Sequence record: NC_010105.1
From: Escherichia phage JS98
Length of the DNA stretch: 64,000 nt
Direction: 5' to 3' (one strand)
Part shown: positions 3,738 through 35,169 of the stretch, piece after piece
How positions within the stretch are numbered: position 1 is the stretch's first letter
How the letters are laid out: the number at the start of each line of letters is the position of its first letter
Position numbers and translations under genes: made by a program
Notes under the pieces: model-generated
Databases searched by the model: none
Seen by the model: the letters and a program-made list of their open reading frames with translations, nothing else
Told to the model about the DNA's origin: nothing

Positions 3738-4756
3738 CGTGTAACCTCATTATAAAGTTGTGCGGTCATAGTCTTAAGGGCTTTAACATCTTCTTCAGTG
3801 TGGCCATCAGGAAGGGCGTCGATATAATCATACATCATATCCAAGAGGGATTTAACTTCATCTTCCTCTTCAGAATCATCGATATCAACACTATTATCTA
3901 CCTTAGACACGATACGTAAAGAGTGAACAACCTTTTCAAGCTCTGATTCGAACTTAGTAAGGCCGTCATCGATTTTATCGACTATAACACGAACTGCGAT
4001 ATTTGTAAAATCTTTGTAATCGATAGTCGCATTAGGATAATGAATCTTACGATGCCAACAGGTTTCATTAATGATGAAATCCATTTTATGAGTTTCGGTA
4101 TCGAAAATCCAGAAACCACGAGGGTCGTTCTCATCACCTGCAGTCAGGGTCCATGGAGTACCAATGTACTTAACGTTTGCTGCATCAGAAATAGTGTGGA
4201 AGTGGCCTGACCAAACTTGCTTATACTTTTTAAGGAAATCAGGTTCTAAACCATGGGATTTCATTCCTTTATAGAAATAGAAACCATTTAATTCCCAATG
4301 ACCAACACAGAAATCTGCTGTAGTATTTTTGATATGGTCCATGATATCAGTCGTGTTTTCTTCACACATCCATGGAATCAAATCAATTTCGGTGCCATCA
4401 AAGTTAACCGTAGTAGGTTTTTCAATAACCTTGATATGGTCATATTTACCCAGAACTTCAGAAGCTGCGTTAGGAGTCAAGGTATTTTTGTAGTGCATAT
4501 CATGATTACCAACAATGGTATACATGGTAATGCCATTAGCTTTAAGCAAATCAGAGATTTCGCGAGCGAATTCCATACACTTATGGGTAATTGCTTTACG
4601 AACGTCAAAGATATCGCCGTATTGAATCCATACGGTAATACCATTTGCTTTAGAATAATCAATAGCGTCTTGGATACCTTGACGTTGGATATTTTGTACC
4701 CACACATCATCGGCCTTCACTCCAAGGTGCCAGTCACCTGTGTTTAATATTTTCAT
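3734..4756 (-). CDS. 47: recombination endonuclease subunit gp47 (Mre11/SbcD-like phosphoesterase)
   Basis: Start taken at MKILNTGDWHLG (ATG at 4754-4756), not the upstream in-frame Met of the ORF track; GDWH and GNHD phosphoesterase motifs; colinear with T4 gp47. Confidence 0.9.
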   Translation of the reverse strand: MKILNTGDWHLGVKADDVWVQNIQRQGIQDAIDYSKANGITVWIQYGDIFDVRKAITHKCMEFAREISDLLKANGITMYTIVGNHDMHYKNTLTPNAASEVLGKYDHIKVIEKPTTVNFDGTEIDLIPWMCEENTTDIMDHIKNTTADFCVGHWELNGFYFYKGMKSHGLEPDFLKKYKQVWSGHFHTISDAANVKYIGTPWTLTAGDENDPRGFWIFDTETHKMDFIINETCWHRKIHYPNATIDYKDFTNIAVRVIVDKIDDGLTKFESELEKVVHSLRIVSKVDNSVDIDDSEEEDEVKSLLDMMYDYIDALPDGHTEEDVKALKTMTAQLYNEVTR

Positions 4757-4896
4757 AAGCCGAGCACCGTTATCGCAATGCAAAATAAAATTATTGAGAT
4801 GAACCCATCAGGAGTAGAAAAGAATCCTATCCAACAGGCTCGTGTGAATGTGTAGAATGCCATGAATAACACGACATATCCTAAAAGTAATTCCAT
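4753..4896 (-). CDS. small hydrophobic protein (47 aa)
   Basis: MELLLGYVVLFMAFYTF... preceded by GAGGAGAA RBS; stop TGA overlaps gp47 ATG (ATGA coupling). Confidence 0.35.
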   Translation of the reverse strand: MELLLGYVVLFMAFYTFTRACWIGFFSTPDGFISIILFCIAITVLGL

Positions 4897-4939
4897 ATGT
4901 TCTCCTCAGTTGGTTCATTTTATCATCCGAATATAAAGC

Positions 4940-4960
4940 AAAAAAGGAGCCTAAGCTCCT
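4940..4960 (-). terminator. rho-independent terminator (palindrome GGAGC-CTAA-GCTCC with flanking A/T runs)
   Basis: Perfect 5-bp stem, 4-nt loop, T-run on the minus strand immediately after the 4951-5124 ORF. Confidence 0.5.
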
Positions 4961-28766: not shown

Positions 28767-29216
28767 TCAAAAGAGCGAATCTAAAACCTTAAACATCGAC
28801 GGGCCCATGACATATTCCCATTGCGGACGTTTAATCAAAGCGAAAGCGTCGAATTCCGGAATCGTACGACCATCAGGGAACGTATGGTAAGCTGTACATT
28901 TGCAATTCTTGAACTGCTCGTGTTCGACAGGCACAGTATATAAGAACAGGTGTAGATTCTTATTGCTTGAATATTTGAACTCACCTAGGTCTTTCAGGAA
29001 CGCAGGGTCGTATGCCGTGAATCCAATCTCTTCTTCGGTTTCACGCATTGCTGCTTGAATAGGCTCTTCACCTGGTTCGACATGACCTTTAGGAATGTCC
29101 CATTTATGACGCATGTTCTCTGGATTACGAGAGCCTGTTACACGACCCATAACCAATTCTTTATCGGCGGTCATGAACAAAATACCAGCAGATAGTTCTT
29201 TCACTTTCTTACTCAT
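28767..29216 (-). CDS. nudE: Nudix hydrolase NudE
   Basis: Start at MSKKVKELS (ATG 29214-29216); Nudix box [22 protein letters not shown]. Confidence 0.75.
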
Positions 29217-29445
29217 CGTCTCGTTCCCATGATTGTTTAAAGATATCTCGTATAATAATTTCAACACATGTTTCTGTTGACGGACTTTCACTATCAGATA
29301 TTTGGACCATATAATCAGAAATAGGTCGGAACAAATCCAAGTCACTTTCTAAATCTTCTTTGATTTTCTCTTCTGATGTCCCGGTGTCATAGGAATACAG
29401 ATAAGAATCGCATGACTCGGATTTAATATAAATCGCAATACTCAT
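29209..29445 (-). CDS. hypothetical acidic protein (78 aa)
   Basis: Intact ORF. Confidence 0.4.
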   Translation of the reverse strand: MSIAIYIKSESCDSYLYSYDTGTSEEKIKEDLESDLDLFRPISDYMVQISDSESPSTETCVEIIIRDIFKQSWERDDE

Positions 29446-30029
29446 TTACGGCATTCCTCAATAAAAGAGTTTAATGTATTTTTCTTAGTGATATCGTCAT
29501 ATACCTTTTTAACTTTAGAAATACGAAAAGGTACTTCAATAACTGCAGTCCATAAAAATGATGCGATAAGTCCTAAGATAGCCGCAGACATCGCTGAAGC
29601 AAATAGCGTAATAGGCAGGTCATTATCCGTTGTCAGGAAAAACCCTAGGAGTGGGAAAAATAATATCCCCATCCAAACATAGAACCTAGAACTCACTAAT
29701 TTGTCGTATTCATCACTCCATGTACGAAAGCCGTATTTTTTGCTATAACAAATCAATGGGTCTGGTGTCTGTTCTTTATGGGGTTCCGGTTGCCAACCAT
29801 TTACGATATAGCCCATTTTATATTCCTCAATTAAAAGTTGTTTCATTTCAGCAGTACAACCCGACCAATCTATTGTACTGGCTGAAATTCCTTCATCGCC
29901 ATCATCAATATTTCGCCATGACTTTTTAATAATCATATTCTCACCACTTGGGATAATGATTCCGGCATTTTCGGGCCGACGGATGAAGTTTACATCAACA
30001 CCCATACAACCCGGTTCATAAAGGGCCAT
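29442..30029 (-). CDS. membrane protein (195 aa; soluble N-domain, C-terminal TM helices)
   Basis: Hydrophobic segments FYVWMGILFFPLLGFFL and LFASAMSAAILGLIASFLWTAVI. Confidence 0.45.
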   Translation of the reverse strand: MALYEPGCMGVDVNFIRRPENAGIIIPSGENMIIKKSWRNIDDGDEGISASTIDWSGCTAEMKQLLIEEYKMGYIVNGWQPEPHKEQTPDPLICYSKKYGFRTWSDEYDKLVSSRFYVWMGILFFPLLGFFLTTDNDLPITLFASAMSAAILGLIASFLWTAVIEVPFRISKVKKVYDDITKKNTLNSFIEECRK

Positions 30030-30715
30030 TACCAGCCCTCCATAGGGAATTCCAGATATACTTGGGCATTAACGCGGATTTCATTTGTAATCTTTTTAAC
30101 ACGGTCTGTATTACGAGACACACGACCAAACCAGCGCCAGCCATTACTTACTGCACGAGAACCTGTATGCCATGTCTGCCAATCAAACTGGAGCAATGTG
30201 CGGTCAGGAGCATCCCACTTGGTTAATTCATTAGACTCAATTTTTTCCAGAACTTCTTTATGCCACTGGCGATAGATAAGTTCGCCTTCAGGAATCTGGC
30301 TAAATTGTACAGTTCCGGTTGCAAAATAAGTAGGACACACATCAGCGTTAACAAGACCAAGAATATGTTCAGAATGGTATCGAGGATTATCATAATCAGG
30401 TTGCCCTGCAGTAATAAAGTGTTGACCAACTGGAATATCCGGACGCGGTACATCATCATGGTGATAACCTGGGATAGCAGGATACCAACCAGGCATAAGC
30501 ATATGAACTCGAGAATCAAATACAACCTGGTCGGTGTTCCAATCGTCCGGCAGGTTCATGATGAAGCTGCGAGTAATAGGACCACCGTTATCAAAAGCGA
30601 AGGCCAACGAACTGTTGAAGAACATAGTTTCGTTTTTGATTTTATCGTTAGAAATTTTACCGGCAAAACTACCTACTGCACGAGCTTGAGAATTAAAAGT
30701 TTTCGGGCTGTTCAT
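30029..30715 (-). CDS. hypothetical protein (228 aa); possible Fe(II)/2-oxoglutarate oxygenase-like (HxD...H...R)
   Basis: GYHHDD then about 100 aa later WHTGSRAVS...R; motif-level guess only. Confidence 0.45.
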   Translation of the reverse strand: MNSPKTFNSQARAVGSFAGKISNDKIKNETMFFNSSLAFAFDNGGPITRSFIMNLPDDWNTDQVVFDSRVHMLMPGWYPAIPGYHHDDVPRPDIPVGQHFITAGQPDYDNPRYHSEHILGLVNADVCPTYFATGTVQFSQIPEGELIYRQWHKEVLEKIESNELTKWDAPDRTLLQFDWQTWHTGSRAVSNGWRWFGRVSRNTDRVKKITNEIRVNAQVYLEFPMEGW

Positions 30716-30729
30716 AATATTTTCCTCAA

Positions 30730-30942
30730 TTACTTTTTGTTGAAAAAGTACATTTTACCTTTAGGGGATAAGGATACACGAAGTGCGTTACCGATACCAA
30801 CTGAACATTTAACCAGGTCAGCAGATTTCAATTCACCAAATGCTTGACGAAGGTCACCGTCACGAGTGTTAACCATCAGGCATTTAGCACCAGCTGCACG
30901 AACTTCGTTTAACATGTTGATTGCTTGGTTAGAAAGTTTCAT
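30730..30942 (-). CDS. hypothetical protein (70 aa)
   Basis: Start at MKLSNQAIN (ATG 30940-30942) after GGAGAA RBS; ORF-track N-extension runs through the promoter. Confidence 0.4.
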   Translation of the reverse strand: MKLSNQAINMLNEVRAAGAKCLMVNTRDGDLRQAFGELKSADLVKCSVGIGNALRVSLSPKGKMYFFNKK

Positions 30943-30970
30943 TTTATTCTCCATTTCACTCTGTTGTTTT

Positions 30971-31008
30971 GATAGGTCTATAGTATCACACCTATAGACC
31001 TTGTATAC
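30971..31008 (-). promoter_or_regulatory. conserved early-promoter cassette (PeSL-like)
   Basis: Minus-strand GTATACAAGGTCTATAGGTGTGATACTATAGACCTATCAAAACAACAG. Confidence 0.5.
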
Positions 31009-31020
31009 TGTTTTATGCAA

Positions 31021-31980
31021 TTATTTTGTGAAAGGACGAATTAAATGTTGGTTATCTTGGAACCGCTTGATGTAGTCATTTTCACCTAGCGTCTTATACA
31101 TATTCACTACAGCTTGGTAGTTTTCCCAGGCATACTCGCGGAACCAGCCTGAAGTGATTGAGGTACACACTTTCTCAAGAGCCATATAGAAACTTAACGA
31201 TGGTGAAATATTGAAGTCATTAGGAACCTGTGAACGTTCTAGGGCCAACACACAAGTTTCTTCATATACGCCAGCCAGTTTAATAGCTTCAGGCAAAGCT
31301 TCAAACTTCTCGCGTGAGGTCATGACTTCAGAACCGTCTTTCATATAAAAGGTATACGCTGGGCGTCCAGCCAATGCCACAGCTTCATGGATAGAGTCAT
31401 GGTCTAATGTATAAATGGTATCATTAAAGAACGATGATTTGTTTACATCCAATTTAGGATGAGAATAGCTCAACGTTTCTTTCTGGCGTTGCAGCATGAT
31501 TTCTTGGAGCTCTTCATTCAAGGTTACACCTTTATTACGAAGATATTTGATGTGGGACATCGTCTTCAAAAAGAACGGGTTGTTCTTCAAATAACGATGG
31601 CTCATTTTGATGGCCAGACAGATATCAGGTGTGGCCCAATAGAAACCCGTAAGACGGTCCTTTTTAATATGATTTTCGGCATATTTCAGGAGACGATAAC
31701 TTGAGGTGAAATCTTCGTCCTGAAGCTCGCCGGTGATTTCTCGTACGTTAGTCAGGGCACGGACGATATAAGCTTCAAAATAGGTTTCTTTACCATTGTA
31801 CATACATTTAAAGGCCTGGACATCAGGATTATCCACAGGAACATGGGCACCGAACATCCGAGCTTTAAAGTGATTCCACGAGCCTTGGTCGGCAATAAAA
31901 TCCCAATCAGAATTTTCGATATACTTACTTTCAATCAGACCAGCGTGGTGCAGTGCACGAGAACCAATAACTAGCATCAT
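31021..31980 (-). CDS. hypothetical protein (319 aa) with N-terminal GS...DxD nucleotidyltransferase-like motif
   Basis: GSRALHHAGLIESKYIENSDWDF near N-terminus; GAGGAAAAT RBS. Confidence 0.45.
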   Translation of the reverse strand: MMLVIGSRALHHAGLIESKYIENSDWDFIADQGSWNHFKARMFGAHVPVDNPDVQAFKCMYNGKETYFEAYIVRALTNVREITGELQDEDFTSSYRLLKYAENHIKKDRLTGFYWATPDICLAIKMSHRYLKNNPFFLKTMSHIKYLRNKGVTLNEELQEIMLQRQKETLSYSHPKLDVNKSSFFNDTIYTLDHDSIHEAVALAGRPAYTFYMKDGSEVMTSREKFEALPEAIKLAGVYEETCVLALERSQVPNDFNISPSLSFYMALEKVCTSITSGWFREYAWENYQAVVNMYKTLGENDYIKRFQDNQHLIRPFTK

Positions 31981-31992
31981 AATATTTTCCTC

Positions 31993-32162
31993 ATTAATAA
32001 AGACGAGTTACTTCATATTTACCCAGTTCAGATTTTTTTGCTTCAATACGCGTTGCGGCTAGATTAGCAGCCTCTAGTGAAGAAAATTGGACCACTTGGG
32101 AAGTATTCTGCCTTACACCACCTTGTGGGTGAGTAACAAAAACAATAAGAACATTATACATA
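31993..32162 (-). CDS. hypothetical small protein (56 aa)
   Basis: MYNVLIVFVTHPQGGVRQ... with GAGGAAAATATT RBS; below ORF-track cutoff. Confidence 0.3.
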
Positions 32163-32182
32163 ATATTTTCCTCAGAGTAAAC

Positions 32183-32422
32183 TTAAATTTCAGCAACGTA
32201 ATCGTTATGCAATTCCCACATATCATCAGAATTATTCTTAATGATAGGAATTATCTCATTAGAGATTTCTTCTGCATAAGGGTCATTGATACAGTGGGCA
32301 TCTTCAAAACGAACACCGTAATCAGACTTCTTATAGGCAAAGCCATAAATCTTTTTAAACTTAGCACGACTAATTCGTACCGGCTCATCAGACTTATCAG
32401 ACAGCGGAGAGTAATACCACAT
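32183..32422 (-). CDS. hypothetical protein (79 aa)
   Basis: Intact ORF. Confidence 0.4.
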   Translation of the reverse strand: MWYYSPLSDKSDEPVRISRAKFKKIYGFAYKKSDYGVRFEDAHCINDPYAEEISNEIIPIIKNNSDDMWELHNDYVAEI

Positions 32423-32466
32423 AGTGTTCTCCTCATGTTGGTGTACGGTAATAGTATCACGGTTTT

Positions 32467-32811
32467 CTAGAGTTGTACATCACTTCTACAATATTCTAAA
32501 AATAATTTATCGTTGTCTACTGTATCCCAACGTCGCCAAGATGGATTCCAGACCAAAGCGTTGTCACCACAATCATTGAGCTTAAAATGGTCATAGTACA
32601 TAGCTATGTGTCTAGTCTCGTCACCAGAGAACCCTAGTATAGGCTCGCCGTGGGTATGATACATATGATGGTGCATTGAGAGGTCGCATTTATAAAACAT
32701 CTCACGTTTACCACGGACGAACAAGAAAGCTTGCCCATTCATATAGAATTCTTTATCCGTTTTCAAAAGGTATTTGAATACTGAATCTTTATGCATAAGT
32801 CCTCCTACCAC
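32467..32811 (-). CDS. hypothetical His-rich protein (114 aa)
   Basis: HHHMYHTH cluster. Confidence 0.4.
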   Translation of the reverse strand: MVGGLMHKDSVFKYLLKTDKEFYMNGQAFLFVRGKREMFYKCDLSMHHHMYHTHGEPILGFSGDETRHIAMYYDHFKLNDCGDNALVWNPSWRRWDTVDNDKLFLEYCRSDVQL

Positions 32812-32826
32812 ATCCTTGTGGTTAAA

Positions 32827-33054
32827 TTATTTTCCTAACGAAATACGAGTAGGTTTTTTGCCAAAATATTCTTCATAAGAACCATCTAAACGACCTGCTT
32901 TAGACCGACAATACGAATCGTACTTTTTGTAATAAGTCATCTCAGTATTATAACGCGGGTGTCTATCGGCCATAATAATACTTAACGGCCAACCTTTGGC
33001 ATAATCACGAAGACCGTTTATTTTACGAATGTATCTTTTCTTTAATTTTAGCAT
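32827..33054 (-). CDS. hypothetical basic protein (75 aa)
   Basis: Intact ORF. Confidence 0.4.
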   Translation of the reverse strand: MLKLKKRYIRKINGLRDYAKGWPLSIIMADRHPRYNTEMTYYKKYDSYCRSKAGRLDGSYEEYFGKKPTRISLGK

Positions 33055-33272
33055 GAGCTCGGGTACCAGATTTTACCATCGGGACGAGCAACGAAGGTGC
33101 GACCAGCTTCTTCGCCGTAACAAGAGCTATTCAGCCAATCTTCAAGACGAACTTCACCATCGTAATCGTCTAACTCAACACCAAAACTTTGAGCAGAAGC
33201 CATATCTTTTACTTTCTTATACAGGGCAGCCAGTTCAAGAGCAGCTTTTTCTAATTCATCAATATCAGTCAT
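33048..33272 (-). CDS. WSSS-C tail family paralog 1 (74 aa), ends WYPSSC
   Basis: Acidic helical protein; internal WLNSSC and terminal WYPSSC. Confidence 0.5.
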   Translation of the reverse strand: MTDIDELEKAALELAALYKKVKDMASAQSFGVELDDYDGEVRLEDWLNSSCYGEEAGRTFVARPDGKIWYPSSC

Positions 33273-33282
33273 TTTTTATTCC

Positions 33283-33492
33283 TTAGCAAGACATAGAGGA
33301 GCTAAACCAGAAACCTTCACCTTCTGGGATACCGTAGTCATCACGGACCCATTCGTAATCATCATATTCCGGACTAGAAGCCGGAATATATTCTTCGCCA
33401 CCAGCGTGGAAGTGCTGACCTGTTTCGTCAGCCACGGACTGGCCTTTACGTACTAATTCACGGATTTGTTTTTCGATTTCATCAATAGTCAT
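33283..33492 (-). CDS. WSSS-C tail family paralog 2 (69 aa), ends WFSSSMSC
   Basis: Shared C-terminal motif. Confidence 0.5.
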   Translation of the reverse strand: MTIDEIEKQIRELVRKGQSVADETGQHFHAGGEEYIPASSPEYDDYEWVRDDYGIPEGEGFWFSSSMSC

Positions 33493-33501
33493 TTTATTAC
33501 C

Positions 33502-33699
33502 TTAGCATTCGTAAGAGGATGATACCCAAGAGGTACCACTAATAGTAATACAACCGTTATAAAGCGTGATATGTCGTTCTAAGTCACGAACACCATCGAT
33601 ATAGATATCAGCTTCTTCGCGTTCTTCTTTACAAATCTGGATAACGTTTTCAATAGCTGCGGCGGCAGTACGGATTGCACAATCTAATTCACGAGACAT
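33502..33699 (-). CDS. WSSS-C tail family paralog 3 (65 aa), ends WVSSSYEC
   Basis: Shared C-terminal motif. Confidence 0.5.
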   Translation of the reverse strand: MSRELDCAIRTAAAAIENVIQICKEEREEADIYIDGVRDLERHITLYNGCITISGTSWVSSSYEC

Positions 33700-33708
33700 A
33701 ATATTTCC

Positions 33709-33990
33709 TTAACATTCAGAAGAAGAGGACACCCAACCACCATTTTCCAGGTCAGTTGTATAGTCATGAGTATTAACAATAGCCCATTCAGGATGACCAT
33801 CTTCTTCCCAATGGGCAAGGTCAGCTTTCAAGGCACCAGGAGAATAATAGTCACCGCCCATACCGCGAGCAGGGTATATATTAAAATGAGTCTCATATTT
33901 GTCTGCAATTTCCTCGGCACGACGAATAGCTTCATGAATTTCTTTTACTGCGGCCAGAAGCTCTGGGTTGTTATGATTATCATTCATCAT
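33709..33990 (-). CDS. WSSS-C tail family paralog 4 (93 aa), ends GGWVSSSSEC
   Basis: Shared C-terminal motif. Confidence 0.5.
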   Translation of the reverse strand: MMNDNHNNPELLAAVKEIHEAIRRAEEIADKYETHFNIYPARGMGGDYYSPGALKADLAHWEEDGHPEWAIVNTHDYTTDLENGGWVSSSSEC

Positions 33991-33999
33991 AGCTTTTCC

Positions 34000-34290
34000 T
34001 TAGCACATTGCTGAAGAGGAGACCCAGGCACCAACTGTAACGACACCGTTTTCAACTTCACCGCCATTGTTTTCAATTTCATCTTTAAACCACTGGGAGC
34101 ATTCATAACCAACAGGGTAGTATGTACGTCCTGAGCCATAATCACCTGTTCCGAATTGAATACCATACTTATCGGCAATAGCTTCACATTTGTGTTCGAT
34201 GATATCCACTTTATTCAGAAGAGCATAGATAGCCTTTTCTGCAGATTTCTCGTCGTTGTATTCAGGGATTTCAATTTCAATTTTATTCAT
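34000..34290 (-). CDS. WSSS-C tail family paralog 5 (96 aa), ends GAWVSSSAMC
   Basis: Shared C-terminal motif plus internal YECSQWF. Confidence 0.5.
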   Translation of the reverse strand: MNKIEIEIPEYNDEKSAEKAIYALLNKVDIIEHKCEAIADKYGIQFGTGDYGSGRTYYPVGYECSQWFKDEIENNGGEVENGVVTVGAWVSSSAMC

Positions 34291-34640
34291 GATTTACATT
34301 CCTTAATAAAGGTTTCAAGGTCATTACGGTTGGTTTGTTTTACATACTCATTATAATTAGCCATCTCTAAAGCATATCTCTTACGGATGGGAGCATTCAA
34401 AGCATTTGTATGGCAAATATCATACACGAGAGGGATAAAATAAGCCACGACGGCCGGAGCGATTATCATATAGAAACCCATCTCAATAGGCATGACTCCT
34501 TCGATTGCAGCCATAACTGTGGTCATTACCAGACCAACCAGACCGCCGAGCATACCTGTGACAATTCCCGTGAATAAGGAAATAGCAATATCATATTCAG
34601 CCAATTGATAAACATGCGATGAAAGACTAGGCCGTTCCAT
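34287..34640 (-). CDS. membrane protein (about 117 aa, 2-3 TM helices)
   Basis: Hydrophobic segments GIVTGMLGGLVGLVMTTVMAAI and FYMIIAPAVVAYFIPLV. Confidence 0.45.
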   Translation of the reverse strand: MERPSLSSHVYQLAEYDIAISLFTGIVTGMLGGLVGLVMTTVMAAIEGVMPIEMGFYMIIAPAVVAYFIPLVYDICHTNALNAPIRKRYALEMANYNEYVKQTNRNDLETFIKECKS

Positions 34641-35169
34641 TTTGAACCTCTTTAGCGTATTCACGGCATTCAGCAATAAAACGATTAAGCTTCCGTTGTT
34701 GTTTACGACTTTCTAATGTGTACTCAGCAGTTAAGATACCAAGCTCGGCTTTATCATAATTTTTAATATCGGTGTAAGATGGCCGACGGTCGACCATTCC
34801 AAATACATCACCATTTTCTAAAGCCACATAGCATACTAAATGGTAATCATCGTCTGCCATATTAAGAAGCACACAATCATTGCTCTCATTTAAAGAATAT
34901 ACTGAATAACGTAGTCCAGCGAATTCCACTCGTTGAATAGCCAGATTTACGTCAATAATTTCCAAAGCATCTTCAAAAGAAAGGTCTTCAGCTAAAGCAA
35001 AAATAAAAGGTAATTTGGTAGTATCGCCACGGCTAGATGTTCTGCTTAAGAAATCGTTTGAATAGCCTAGGTCTTGGCGAATTCTATAAAGAACTGAATT
35101 GGTTTCATGGGAAAGACCACTATTTTTAAACCAATCAATATTTGATATAAGGTTATCATATAAACTCAT
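34627..35169 (-). CDS. hypothetical protein (180 aa)
   Basis: Intact ORF; first gene after terminator hairpin. Confidence 0.45.
   Translation of the reverse strand: MSLYDNLISNIDWFKNSGLSHETNSVLYRIRQDLGYSNDFLSRTSSRGDTTKLPFIFALAEDLSFEDALEIIDVNLAIQRVEFAGLRYSVYSLNESNDCVLLNMADDDYHLVCYVALENGDVFGMVDRRPSYTDIKNYDKAELGILTAEYTLESRKQQRKLNRFIAECREYAKEVQNGTA

What the first reader, a model, noticed from the sequence alone, without database searches (positions are those of the whole stretch)
30029..31980. Two candidate enzymes in the island: oxygenase-like 228-aa ORF and GS...DxD 319-aa ORF
30029-30715 has an HHDD motif followed about 100 aa later by WHTGSRAVS...R, loosely matching the HxD...H...RxS arrangement of Fe(II)/2-oxoglutarate oxygenases. 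31021-31980 opens with GSRALHHAGLIESKYIENSDWDF, a second NTase-like motif in the window. Both sit in the same leftward gene string as the WSSS-C array and could be modifying enzymes, but the motif matches are weak.
Basis: inference. Interest (0 to 1): 0.4.

Follow-up and report, generated by a model that had tools for sequence, protein, structure and literature searches.

The report
Two phage enzymes, one array-linked
Both ORFs are real enzyme genes of a T4-type coliphage, an iron/2-oxoglutarate oxygenase and a nucleotidyltransferase. The nucleotidyltransferase, but not the oxygenase, travels across many unrelated phages with small acidic proteins that all end in Trp-x-Ser-Ser-x-x-Cys, an apparently undescribed two-part module.

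Summary
The window is a Dhakavirus (JS10-like T4-type coliphage). Both ORFs lie on the minus strand between e.2 and e.6, and public records annotate them as hypothetical.

**New result.** In 79 of 80 metagenomic viral loci, and in phAPEC8-, Otagovirus- and Acinetobacter-type phages, this NTase lies within 6 kb of 1-5 small acidic ORFs ending W-x(1-2)-S-S-x(0-3)-C-stop (phrog_899), in most loci directly upstream on the same strand. None of 57 oxygenase loci lacking the NTase has such an ORF.

So the fold guesses were right. The "modifying enzyme" idea is supported for the NTase only. The most likely mechanism, nucleotidylylation of a tail serine, is inferred and untested.

The parts
30029..30715 (-). 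ORF228: stand-alone Fe(II)/2-oxoglutarate oxygenase-fold protein (phrog_1843; JS10 EpJS10_0118)
30455..30463 (-). Codons H85-H86-D87: proposed HxD iron ligands
   Evidence: H85 and D87 are invariant in 76 homologues at 31-88% identity. The iron-ligand role is inferred from the family pattern.
30116..30169 (-). Codons H183 to S200: distal His (H183), R194 (His+11) and R198-V-S200
   Evidence: H183, R194 and R198 are invariant; S200 is nearly invariant in the close set. They lie on strands 182-185 and 192-201 of the model. A 2OG-binding role is inferred.
31021..31980 (-). ORF319: pol-beta-fold nucleotidyltransferase (phrog_2141; JS10 EpJS10_0120)
31678..31977 (-). DUF7277 domain (aa 2-101): NTase catalytic core with G6-S7, D25-x-D27, E69
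   Evidence: Pfam PF23942 E 1e-26. Catalytic residues invariant and kept in 80 further loci. GS lies at the strand1/helix1 junction, DxD at the start of strand 26-31, and E69 on strand 64-73.
31066..31623 (-). DUF7275 domain (aa 120-305): helical domain and the best-conserved part of the protein
   Evidence: Pfam PF23940 E 1e-78. About 35 invariant residues, including K125, H128, K139, T140, R165, H174, D193-H194-D195, H198, E240, E241, E248, R249, K270, C272 and R281. In distant phages only this part aligns by tblastn, at 50-58% identity.
34000..34290 (-). WSSS-C protein 1 (96 aa, pI 4.4; ends ...GAWVSSSAMC)
   Evidence: phrog_899 E 3e-23; pI.
33709..33990 (-). WSSS-C protein 2 (93 aa; ends ...GGWVSSSSEC)
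   Evidence: phrog_899.
33502..33699 (-). WSSS-C protein 3 (65 aa; ends ...TSWVSSSYEC)
   Evidence: phrog_4882; tail motif.
33283..33492 (-). WSSS-C protein 4 (69 aa; ends ...GFWFSSSMSC)
   Evidence: phrog_899.
33048..33272 (-). WSSS-C protein 5 (74 aa; internal WLNSSCYGE plus terminal ...KIWYPSSC)
   Evidence: phrog_899; the motif occurs twice.
32153..32181 (-). Candidate sigma-70/T4-early-type promoter (TTTACT-17-TATAAT) in the 202-bp gap upstream of the NTase gene
   Evidence: Consensus scan, 10/12 matches. This is a consensus match only.

Best explanation
The interval holds two unrelated accessory enzymes of a T4-type phage.

(1) ORF228 is an active, stand-alone Fe(II)/2-oxoglutarate oxygenase. 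By inference it binds iron through H85, D87 and H183 and binds 2OG through R194 (with R198/S200). It would decarboxylate 2OG to form a ferryl species that hydroxylates a substrate which is the same in very different hosts. That substrate is unknown, and it is not the WSSS-C proteins.

(2) ORF319 is an active pol-beta-fold nucleotidyltransferase. It forms a conserved two-part module with the array of small acidic proteins encoded upstream. Each of these proteins ends in W-x(1-2)-S-S-x(0-3)-C.

Most likely (inferred), the highly conserved DUF7275 domain docks this tail into the active site. The GS/DxD/E centre then transfers an NMP from an NTP onto a tail serine hydroxyl. One enzyme would thereby tag several paralogous effector proteins early in infection.

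What is shown: the folds, the catalytic-residue conservation and the genomic coupling. What is inferred: the enzyme activities, tail recognition and serine nucleotidylylation.
For: Oxygenase:
- High-confidence model.
- HxD...H...R is invariant in 76 homologues.
- One database cluster is already named 'Phytanoyl-CoA dioxygenase family protein'.

NTase:
- High-confidence model.
- GS, DxD and E are conserved in every full-length homologue.

Coupling of NTase and WSSS-C genes:
- Tail-motif ORFs occur in 79/80 IMG/VR NTase loci, and 215 of the 219 are upstream on the same strand.
- They also occur in phAPEC8-, Otagovirus- and Lazarusvirus-type loci.
- There are 0 such ORFs among 8,220 ORFs in 57 oxygenase-only loci (Fisher p 8e-47 by ORF and 3e-38 by locus; loci are phylogenetically related, so these p-values overstate independence).
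- The WSSS-C family is the only gene family shared across 15 of 17 NTase sequence groups.
- Starting from four WSSS-C proteins, all from similar Otagovirus-like contigs, each has a DUF7277/DUF7275 gene 1.1-1.3 kb downstream.

Evidence for tail recognition:
- In an alignment of 25 family members only W, one S and the terminal C are invariant, and mean column identity is 22%.
- The NTase's DUF7275 domain stays 50-58% identical across the same phages.

Precedent for NTase-fold enzymes acting on protein hydroxyls:
- MntA polyadenylylates HepT (PMC7641770).
- MenT1 and MenT3 phosphorylate their own active-site Thr/Ser (PMC11375011).
Against: - No activity, complex or modified product has been observed.
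- Model coordinates could not be inspected, so metal-site and tail-docking geometry are unverified.
- The closest structural relatives (MenT toxins) act on tRNA 3' ends, not on proteins.
- ORF319 is not basic (pI 6.3), and no basic surface was looked for.
- In CC31-type phages the array is largely replaced by apparent tRNA genes while the NTase persists. In one lineage (L070-L073, L081) the only tail ORF is 6.5 kb away on the other strand. An adjacent array is therefore not strictly required.
- In this window three unrelated small genes and a promoter-like site lie between the array and the NTase.
- Many of the 80 loci are related T4-like phages, so the effective sample is nearer 17 groups.
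Confidence: 0.42

Rival explanations
1. Toxin-antitoxin-like control. ORF319 is a MenT/AbiEii-type toxin used by the phage, for example to block host tRNAs by 3' extension. The upstream small proteins are MenA1-like inhibitors or regulators whose tail or N-terminal helix occupies the active site or induces auto-phosphorylation.
Against: Up to five paralogues per single enzyme, together with a strictly conserved terminal peptide and occasional internal duplication of the motif, are not features of known antitoxins. No member hits the AbiEii Pfam model at E<=10. No AbiEi/COG5340-type antitoxin was found. The CC31 type keeps the NTase with only a remnant of the array. A strictly lytic phage has little obvious need for an antitoxin.
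Confidence: 0.2
2. Adaptor model. The conserved tail is a docking peptide, not a substrate. Each paralogue's variable body binds a different host target and brings it to the NTase for nucleotidylylation.
For: The bodies are variable and the tail is invariant. Several paralogues accompany one enzyme, and the coupling is conserved.
Against: Nothing distinguishes this from the substrate model. The bodies share a common helix plus YG-x-G-x-YY core rather than unrelated binding domains. The tail contains hydroxyl residues that are chemically suited as acceptors.
Confidence: 0.15
3. One reading: both the oxygenase and the NTase tailor the WSSS-C proteins.
For: All lie in one leftward gene string here. 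All 23 oxygenase loci that include an NTase also have the array.
Against: 57/80 oxygenase loci have neither an NTase nor a tail ORF. The oxygenase is absent near the NTase in three other phage families. It is distant from the NTase in Aeromonas phages. It has no conserved neighbour at all.
Confidence: 0.06
4. No functional link. The NTase and the WSSS-C genes are neighbours only through inherited synteny or co-transfer as a cassette.
For: Phage early regions are mosaics of unrelated small genes. Many sampled loci are related T4-like phages.
Against: The pairing persists across 15 of 17 NTase sequence groups and across different phage families whose other flanking genes are all different.
Confidence: 0.07

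Closest known systems
PhyH/EctD-like clade of Fe(II)/2-oxoglutarate oxygenases (EasH, ectoine hydroxylase EctD, phytanoyl-CoA hydroxylase, PhyH-type proline hydroxylases)
   Different: No sequence-profile similarity to any Pfam or PDB family. It is shorter (228 aa against about 260-290) and has its own N-terminal extension. It is about 70% identical across unrelated phage types, which is unusually constrained. The substrate is unknown.
MenT/AbiEii (DUF1814) nucleotidyltransferase toxins with MenA/AbiEi antitoxins
   Different: No hit to the AbiEii Pfam model. It is encoded by lytic phages, not by chromosomal TA loci. The partners are arrays of 1-5 acidic paralogues with an invariant W..SS..C terminus. 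The DUF7275 domain is much larger and more conserved than the MenT C-terminal domain.
HepT/MntA (HEPN/MNT) type VII systems
   Same: A minimal NTase covalently nucleotidylylates a hydroxyl side chain of the protein encoded next to it (PMC7641770, PMC13000451). This is the same logic as the mechanism proposed here.
   Different: The partner there is a HEPN RNase modified on Tyr. Here the partners have no HEPN or any other Pfam domain, and the candidate acceptor is Ser.
Small-molecule O-nucleotidyltransferases ANT(2'')-Ia and LnuA
   Different: They are resistance enzymes acting on antibiotics. They lack the DUF7275 domain and have no linked small-protein array.
RiPP systems with many precursors per enzyme (e.g. 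prochlorosins) and NTase-like tailoring of a C-terminal Ser in the lasso peptide pseudomycoidin (PsmN)
   Same: Several paralogous small gene products lie next to a single modifying enzyme. An NTase-homologue acting at a C-terminal Ser has precedent (PMC9266682).
   Different: Here the conserved part is the C-terminal tail and the variable part is the body, which is the reverse of leader and core. No protease, transporter or cyclase gene is linked. The products are probably whole folded proteins.

Membership tests
Fe(II)/2-oxoglutarate-dependent oxygenase superfamily | Double-stranded beta-helix (cupin-type) core fold | tested here: met
Fe(II)/2-oxoglutarate-dependent oxygenase superfamily | 2-His-1-carboxylate triad HxD/E...H | tested here: met
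   H85, D87 and H183 are invariant in 76 homologues.
Fe(II)/2-oxoglutarate-dependent oxygenase superfamily | Basic residue (Arg/Lys, often RxS) about 10 residues after the distal His that binds the 2OG C5 carboxylate | tested here: met
   R194 (His+11) and R198 are invariant; R198-V-S200 is an RxS. Which of the two binds 2OG is not resolved.
Fe(II)/2-oxoglutarate-dependent oxygenase superfamily | Match to a curated sequence model (PhyH, 2OG-FeII_Oxy, TauD and others) | tested here: not met
   No Pfam or NCBIfam hit at E<=1 for the query. Among 76 members only two weak AraC_binding (cupin) hits. No PDB hit by profile.
Fe(II)/2-oxoglutarate-dependent oxygenase superfamily | Fe(II)- and 2OG-dependent turnover | not testable with these tools
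   Needs a purified-protein assay.
Pol-beta superfamily nucleotidyltransferases | hG[GS] at the strand1-helix1 junction, [DE]h[DE]h on strand 2, third carboxylate on a later strand | tested here: met
   I-G6-S7, D25-W-D27-F and E69 are invariant and are kept in all full-length sequences from 80 more loci. Their positions on the model's secondary structure fit. The GS-to-DxD spacing is 17 residues, longer than the classical 9-13.
Pol-beta superfamily nucleotidyltransferases | Alpha/beta NTase core fold | tested here: met
DUF1814 / AbiEii / MenT toxins | Match to the family's sequence model (PF08843) with its four motifs, including the DUF1814-specific motifs III and IV | tested here: not met
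   No AbiEii hit in 43 members at E<=10. K125-x-x-H128-R129...K139 could be analogous to motif III, but this is a resemblance only (motif definition from PMC7450476).
DUF1814 / AbiEii / MenT toxins | Cognate antitoxin (AbiEi/MenA) and growth-inhibiting tRNA nucleotidylation | not testable with these tools
   Upstream small proteins exist but are unrelated to AbiEi. Toxicity and tRNA modification need experiments.
HepT/MntA type VII toxin-antitoxin | Partner protein is a HEPN RNase (Rx4-6H) | tested here: not met
   WSSS-C proteins have no Pfam domain, HEPN included. They belong to phrog_899 or phrog_4882, both of unknown function.
RiPP precursor/tailoring-enzyme clusters | Conserved leader with variable core, plus a linked protease or exporter | tested here: not met
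   The conserved element is the C-terminal 6-8 residues and the body is variable. No other gene family is linked across NTase groups.

The most novel reading that the evidence does not exclude
The NTase/DUF7275 enzyme does more than tag. It activates a tail serine by O-nucleotidylylation. Then either (a) elimination to dehydroalanine and attack by the terminal Cys gives a lanthionine/AviCys-like ring, which would be a new NTase-driven route to thioether-cyclised protein tails, encoded by lytic phages and possibly giant viruses. Or (b) the serine primes a short nucleotide chain, giving protein-nucleotide conjugates that act as decoys or sponges against host immunity. The Ser-Ser...Cys spacing, the occasional internal second copy of W-x-x-S-S-C, and the very large invariant surface of DUF7275 (His/Asp/Glu/Cys/Lys/Arg) are compatible with extra chemistry but do not demonstrate it.
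Probability: 0.1. Interest if true: 0.88.

Novelty: new variant of a known kind. Interest (0 to 1): 0.6.

Why it matters
The two folds are familiar. The NTase, however, defines a widespread and apparently undescribed phage module.
- tblastn finds the NTase in 732 GenBank phage records. These include T4-like coliphages, Acinetobacter, Pseudomonas, Aeromonas, Vibrio jumbo, Streptomyces and Gordonia phages.
- DUF7275 relatives also occur in giant eukaryotic viruses.
- A single enzyme coupled to an expandable set of small acidic proteins sharing one terminal peptide looks like a tagging or activation system for early effectors.
- The model coliphages that carry the module (JS10, RB69-like Mosigvirus, phAPEC8) make it directly testable by co-expression and mass spectrometry.

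The result also separates the oxygenase from that system. It flags the oxygenase as a separately mobile, unusually conserved enzyme (about 70% identity across unrelated phage types), whose universal substrate is an open question in its own right.

Tried and rejected
- **Sequence-level annotation.** Pfam, NCBIfam, PADLOC and PDB searches by phmmer and by profile found nothing for ORF228. For ORF319 they found only DUF7277 and DUF7275.
- **Link to arabinosyl-hmC biosynthesis.** Dhakavirus and Mosigvirus phages lack the T4 glucosyltransferases, so I considered this. I rejected it because the proposed UDP-arabinose genes of RB69 lie between gene 42 and uvsX (PMC6024577), and both enzyme families occur in phages of many unrelated hosts.
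- **Link to the nearby tRNA cluster or a CCA-adding role.** No conserved association with tRNA genes was seen in other phage families. T4's own e-to-tRNA region lacks both enzymes and the tail ORFs.
- **Conserved neighbours of the oxygenase.** There are none in 57 loci; the only recurrent 'clusters' were antisense ORFs overlapping the gene itself.
- **Zn site (C243/C272) in DUF7275.** This idea is weakened because C243 is Tyr, Ser or Met in 11 of 81 sequences.
- **Correlation between residue 243 and the tail register (W-to-C length 6 or 8).** None was found.
- **Fusion proteins in the oxygenase family (P0258, P0302, P0362).** They have no Pfam domain in the extra part.
- **Foldseek against afdb50.** The library was unavailable.
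- **Literature.** Searches for DUF7275/DUF7277, the PHROG numbers, phage RiPPs with an NTase, phage AMPylation of small proteins, and acidic tandem paralogues with a C-terminal Cys found no description of the module.
Full report
**Source and setting**

The window is a T4-type coliphage of the genus Dhakavirus. Positions 29000-33000 are 96.6% identical to Escherichia phage MN04 and 95.9% identical to JS10. In JS10 the two ORFs are EpJS10_0118 and EpJS10_0120, both 'conserved hypothetical protein'. They lie in the leftward string nudE, e.2, [0118], [0119], [0120], then about ten small genes, then e.6 and the tRNAs. This is the plastic e-to-tRNA region. T4's own version of the region has neither enzyme.

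**Observation**

Both ORFs and the quoted motifs are present as described. ORF228 has HHDD at residues 85-88 and WHTGSRAVS at 182-190. ORF319 begins MMLVIGSRALHHAGLIESKYIENSDWDFI. The motifs are short, so the real test is conservation and fold.

**ORF228 is an Fe(II)/2OG oxygenase**

- No sequence library recognises it. Pfam, NCBIfam, PADLOC and PDB sequence or profile searches all fail. The only hit is phrog_1843, of unknown function.
- It has 1,144 close homologues and 613 cluster representatives at E<=0.001. One cluster carries the UniRef name 'Phytanoyl-CoA dioxygenase family protein'.
- In an alignment of 76 homologues at 31-88% identity, the only invariant residues are G83, H85, D87, H183, R194 and R198. 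This is the HxD...H...R signature.
- The AlphaFold model is confident (pLDDT 95.4, pTM 0.91).
R187 is variable. R194 (distal His+11) and R198-V-S200 are the conserved basic residues.
- I could not open the model coordinates, so clustering of the three ligands is inferred.

**ORF228 stands alone**

- tblastn finds it in 470 phage records. These include T4-like phages of enterobacteria and Aeromonas, a 49-kb Stenotrophomonas phage, 76-kb Salmonella phages, and (at about 30% identity) Mycobacterium, Gordonia and Bacillus phages.
- In a 61-kb contig with an SPP1-type portal it sits among unrelated small genes.
- Of 80 IMG/VR loci, 57 have no NTase within 6 kb. In those 57 loci no neighbouring gene family recurs.
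- Identity stays near 70% across these unrelated phages. This points to a strongly constrained substrate that is common to many hosts.
- Its class is clear and its substrate is not. T4-like cyanophages are known to carry PhyH-domain and 2OG-Fe(II) oxygenase genes of equally unknown role (PMC3037559).

**ORF319 is a nucleotidyltransferase**

- It consists of DUF7277 (aa 2-101, E 1e-26) and DUF7275 (aa 120-305, E 1e-78), and it belongs to phrog_2141.
- The 120 best of its 2,241 homologues show the same Pfam domains: DUF7275 in all, with DUF7277 in all but a few.
- G6, S7, D25, D27 and E69 are invariant among 43 homologues. G6, S7, D25 and D27 are unchanged in all full-length sequences from 80 further loci, where E69 is E or D.
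- The model is confident (pLDDT 92.2). It places GS at the strand-1/helix-1 junction, DxD at the start of the next strand, and E69 on a later strand. This is the pol-beta NTase arrangement.
- The C-terminal DUF7275 half has about 35 invariant residues and no convincing PDB match of its own.
- In distant phages only this C-terminal half aligns by tblastn, at 50-58% identity.
- No member hits the AbiEii/DUF1814 Pfam model. I therefore call it MenT-like in structure, not a DUF1814 member.
- Some Acinetobacter phage records already say 'putative nucleotidyltransferase'.
- Foldseek against BFVD shows DUF7275 proteins in Klosneuvirus-type giant viruses too.

**The NTase is coupled to the WSSS-C array**

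I inspected three unrelated phages that carry the NTase: phAPEC8 (Stephanstirmvirinae), phiPsa381 (Otagovirus) and Lazarus (Twarogvirinae). None of their annotated flanking genes is shared. Yet each has, directly upstream and on the same strand, two to four small ORFs with similar endings. The endings are:
- WHPSSLSC, WHSSSC and WISSSSMC in phAPEC8;
- WSSSYGTC, WNASSQSC, WDSSSMYC and WSYSSQDC in phiPsa381;
- WYNSSESC and WSPSSESC in Lazarus.

The pattern holds at larger scale:
- In 80 IMG/VR loci retrieved with the NTase profile, 79 contain at least one ORF ending W-x(1-2)-S-S-x(0-3)-C-stop.
- Of the 219 such ORFs, 215 are upstream on the NTase strand.
- Counting only those directly upstream on the same strand in 84 loci, there are 0-5 copies per locus, and 5 loci have none.

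Controls:
- There are 0 such ORFs among 8,220 ORFs in the 57 oxygenase loci without an NTase, and none in T4's e region.
- All 23 oxygenase loci that do contain an NTase have them. Fisher p is 8e-47 by ORF and 3e-38 by locus. Loci are phylogenetically related, so these p-values overstate independence.
- After grouping NTases at 60% identity into 17 groups, the WSSS-C family is the only family shared widely. It is found in 15 groups, with 171 members, all on the NTase strand, at a median start 1.2 kb upstream.
- In the reverse direction, four WSSS-C proteins found by profile search, all from similar Otagovirus-like contigs, each have a DUF7277/DUF7275 gene 1.1-1.3 kb downstream.

Exceptions:
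- In CC31-type phages apparent tRNA genes have replaced the array and only a remnant is left.
- In one lineage the sole tail ORF lies 6.5 kb away on the other strand.

**The small proteins**

- Most belong to phrog_899, of unknown function, and they have no Pfam domain.
- Across 198 unique sequences the median length is 86 aa and the median net charge is -8; 98% are acidic.
- They share an N-terminal amphipathic helix ('...A-x-x-I-A-D-E-x-G-x-x-F') and often a YG-x-G-x-x-YY core. Only W, one S and the terminal C are invariant.
- The tail comes in two registers: W-x-S-S-S-x-x-C (about three quarters) and W-x-x-S-S-C.
- Some paralogues, including window 33048-33272, also carry an internal W-x-N/S-S-S-C-Y-G-E.
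- In this window the five genes are 9-10 bp apart. Three unrelated small genes and a promoter-like site separate them from the NTase. In Mosigvirus-type loci the gap is only about 0.3 kb.

**Mechanism**

Shown here:
- both folds;
- conservation of the catalytic residues;
- genomic coupling of the NTase with the tail-bearing proteins;
- independence of the oxygenase.

Inferred:
- A short terminal peptide is kept invariant in fast-evolving proteins, next to an enzyme whose non-catalytic domain is unusually conserved. This is the pattern expected of an enzyme-recognition site.
- The tail offers Ser hydroxyls, and pol-beta NTases transfer NMPs to hydroxyls.
- There is precedent for protein acceptors. 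MntA polyadenylylates HepT (PMC7641770). MenT1 and MenT3 phosphorylate their own active-site Thr/Ser (PMC11375011). An NTase homologue acts at a C-terminal Ser of a lasso peptide (PMC9266682).

I therefore favour nucleotidylylation of a tail serine, with one enzyme tagging several paralogous early proteins. My estimates are about 0.8 for a functional link of some kind and about 0.4 for this specific chemistry.

Rivals:
- MenA1/MenT1-like regulation of a tRNA-directed toxin (0.2);
- the tail as a docking peptide on adaptor proteins (0.15);
- mere co-location (<0.1);

A more exotic reading, in which Ser activation is followed by thioether ring formation with the terminal Cys or by priming of a nucleotide chain, is not excluded (about 0.1).

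**Known or new**

At the fold level both enzymes are new members of known superfamilies, and a few database records already hint at this. The NTase-plus-tagged-array module is what appears new. No paper in the searchable library mentions DUF7275, DUF7277 or the PHROG families, or describes such arrays. That library is incomplete, so prior description cannot be excluded. I rate it a new variant of a known kind (an NTase with a cognate small protein partner), with moderate-to-high interest because it is widespread and directly testable.

**Limits**

- There are no experiments.
- Model coordinates could not be inspected.
- afdb50 was unavailable.
- The tail regular expression is my own. Its definition was loosened after seeing the first examples, although the zero background in 8,220 control ORFs shows it is specific.
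- The IMG/VR sample is enriched in T4-like phages.

Noticed in passing
window 31991-32181 (minus strand): The 202-bp gap upstream of the NTase gene holds a good sigma-70/T4-early-type promoter match (TTTACT-17-TATAAT, 32181-32153). It also holds an unannotated 55-codon ORF (MYNVLIVFVTHPQGG...KYEVTRLY) that ends just before the NTase ribosome-binding site. JS10 annotates nothing here.
   Followed up: partly
window 33048-33272 (minus strand); also L021, L033, L034, L053, L078, L083: A subclass of WSSS-C proteins carries the motif twice: an internal W-x-N/S-S-S-C followed by Y-G-E, plus the terminal W-x-x-S-S-C. This suggests that W-x-x-S-S-C is a functional unit in itself and not just a C-terminal signal.
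   Followed up: partly
L030 3500-6000 (Enterobacter phage CC31-type contig): The position of the WSSS-C array upstream of the NTase is occupied by what look like tRNA genes when translated. Only a chimeric ORF ending ...YTSSC remains. The NTase can therefore persist with a degraded array.
   Followed up: partly
window 30730-31020 (minus strand); L169-L171 about 4720-4940: A small basic ORF (phrog_6001, pI 9.6; JS10 annotates only 61 aa of it) sits between the NTase and the oxygenase. In Otagovirus-like contigs a small XRE/HTH_37 protein sits between the WSSS-C gene and the NTase. Neither is conserved across NTase groups.
   Followed up: partly
BFVD entries A0A3G5AJ90 (Sylvanvirus), A0A3G5AE53 (Satyrvirus): DUF7275-domain proteins with the same fold occur in giant eukaryotic viruses (Foldseek E 4e-14 and 7e-12). 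Whether W..SS..C proteins accompany them there was not checked.
   Followed up: no
window 32183-33054 (minus strand): Three small genes (75, 114 and 79 aa; phrog_7065, phrog_9796, phrog_3723) are inserted between the array and the NTase in Dhakavirus. They are absent from that position in Mosigvirus-type loci, where the array ends about 0.3 kb before the NTase.
   Followed up: partly
window 34287-34676 and 29442-30029 (minus strand): Two predicted membrane proteins flank the region: e.2 (phrog_2203) and a 129-aa ORF (phrog_2330). They share weak similarity in their C-terminal halves (the 129-aa ORF hits phrog_2203 at E 0.008), and both end in a similar '...F/LIxECRK/KS' sequence.
   Followed up: no
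I did not locate or evaluate it.
   Followed up: no
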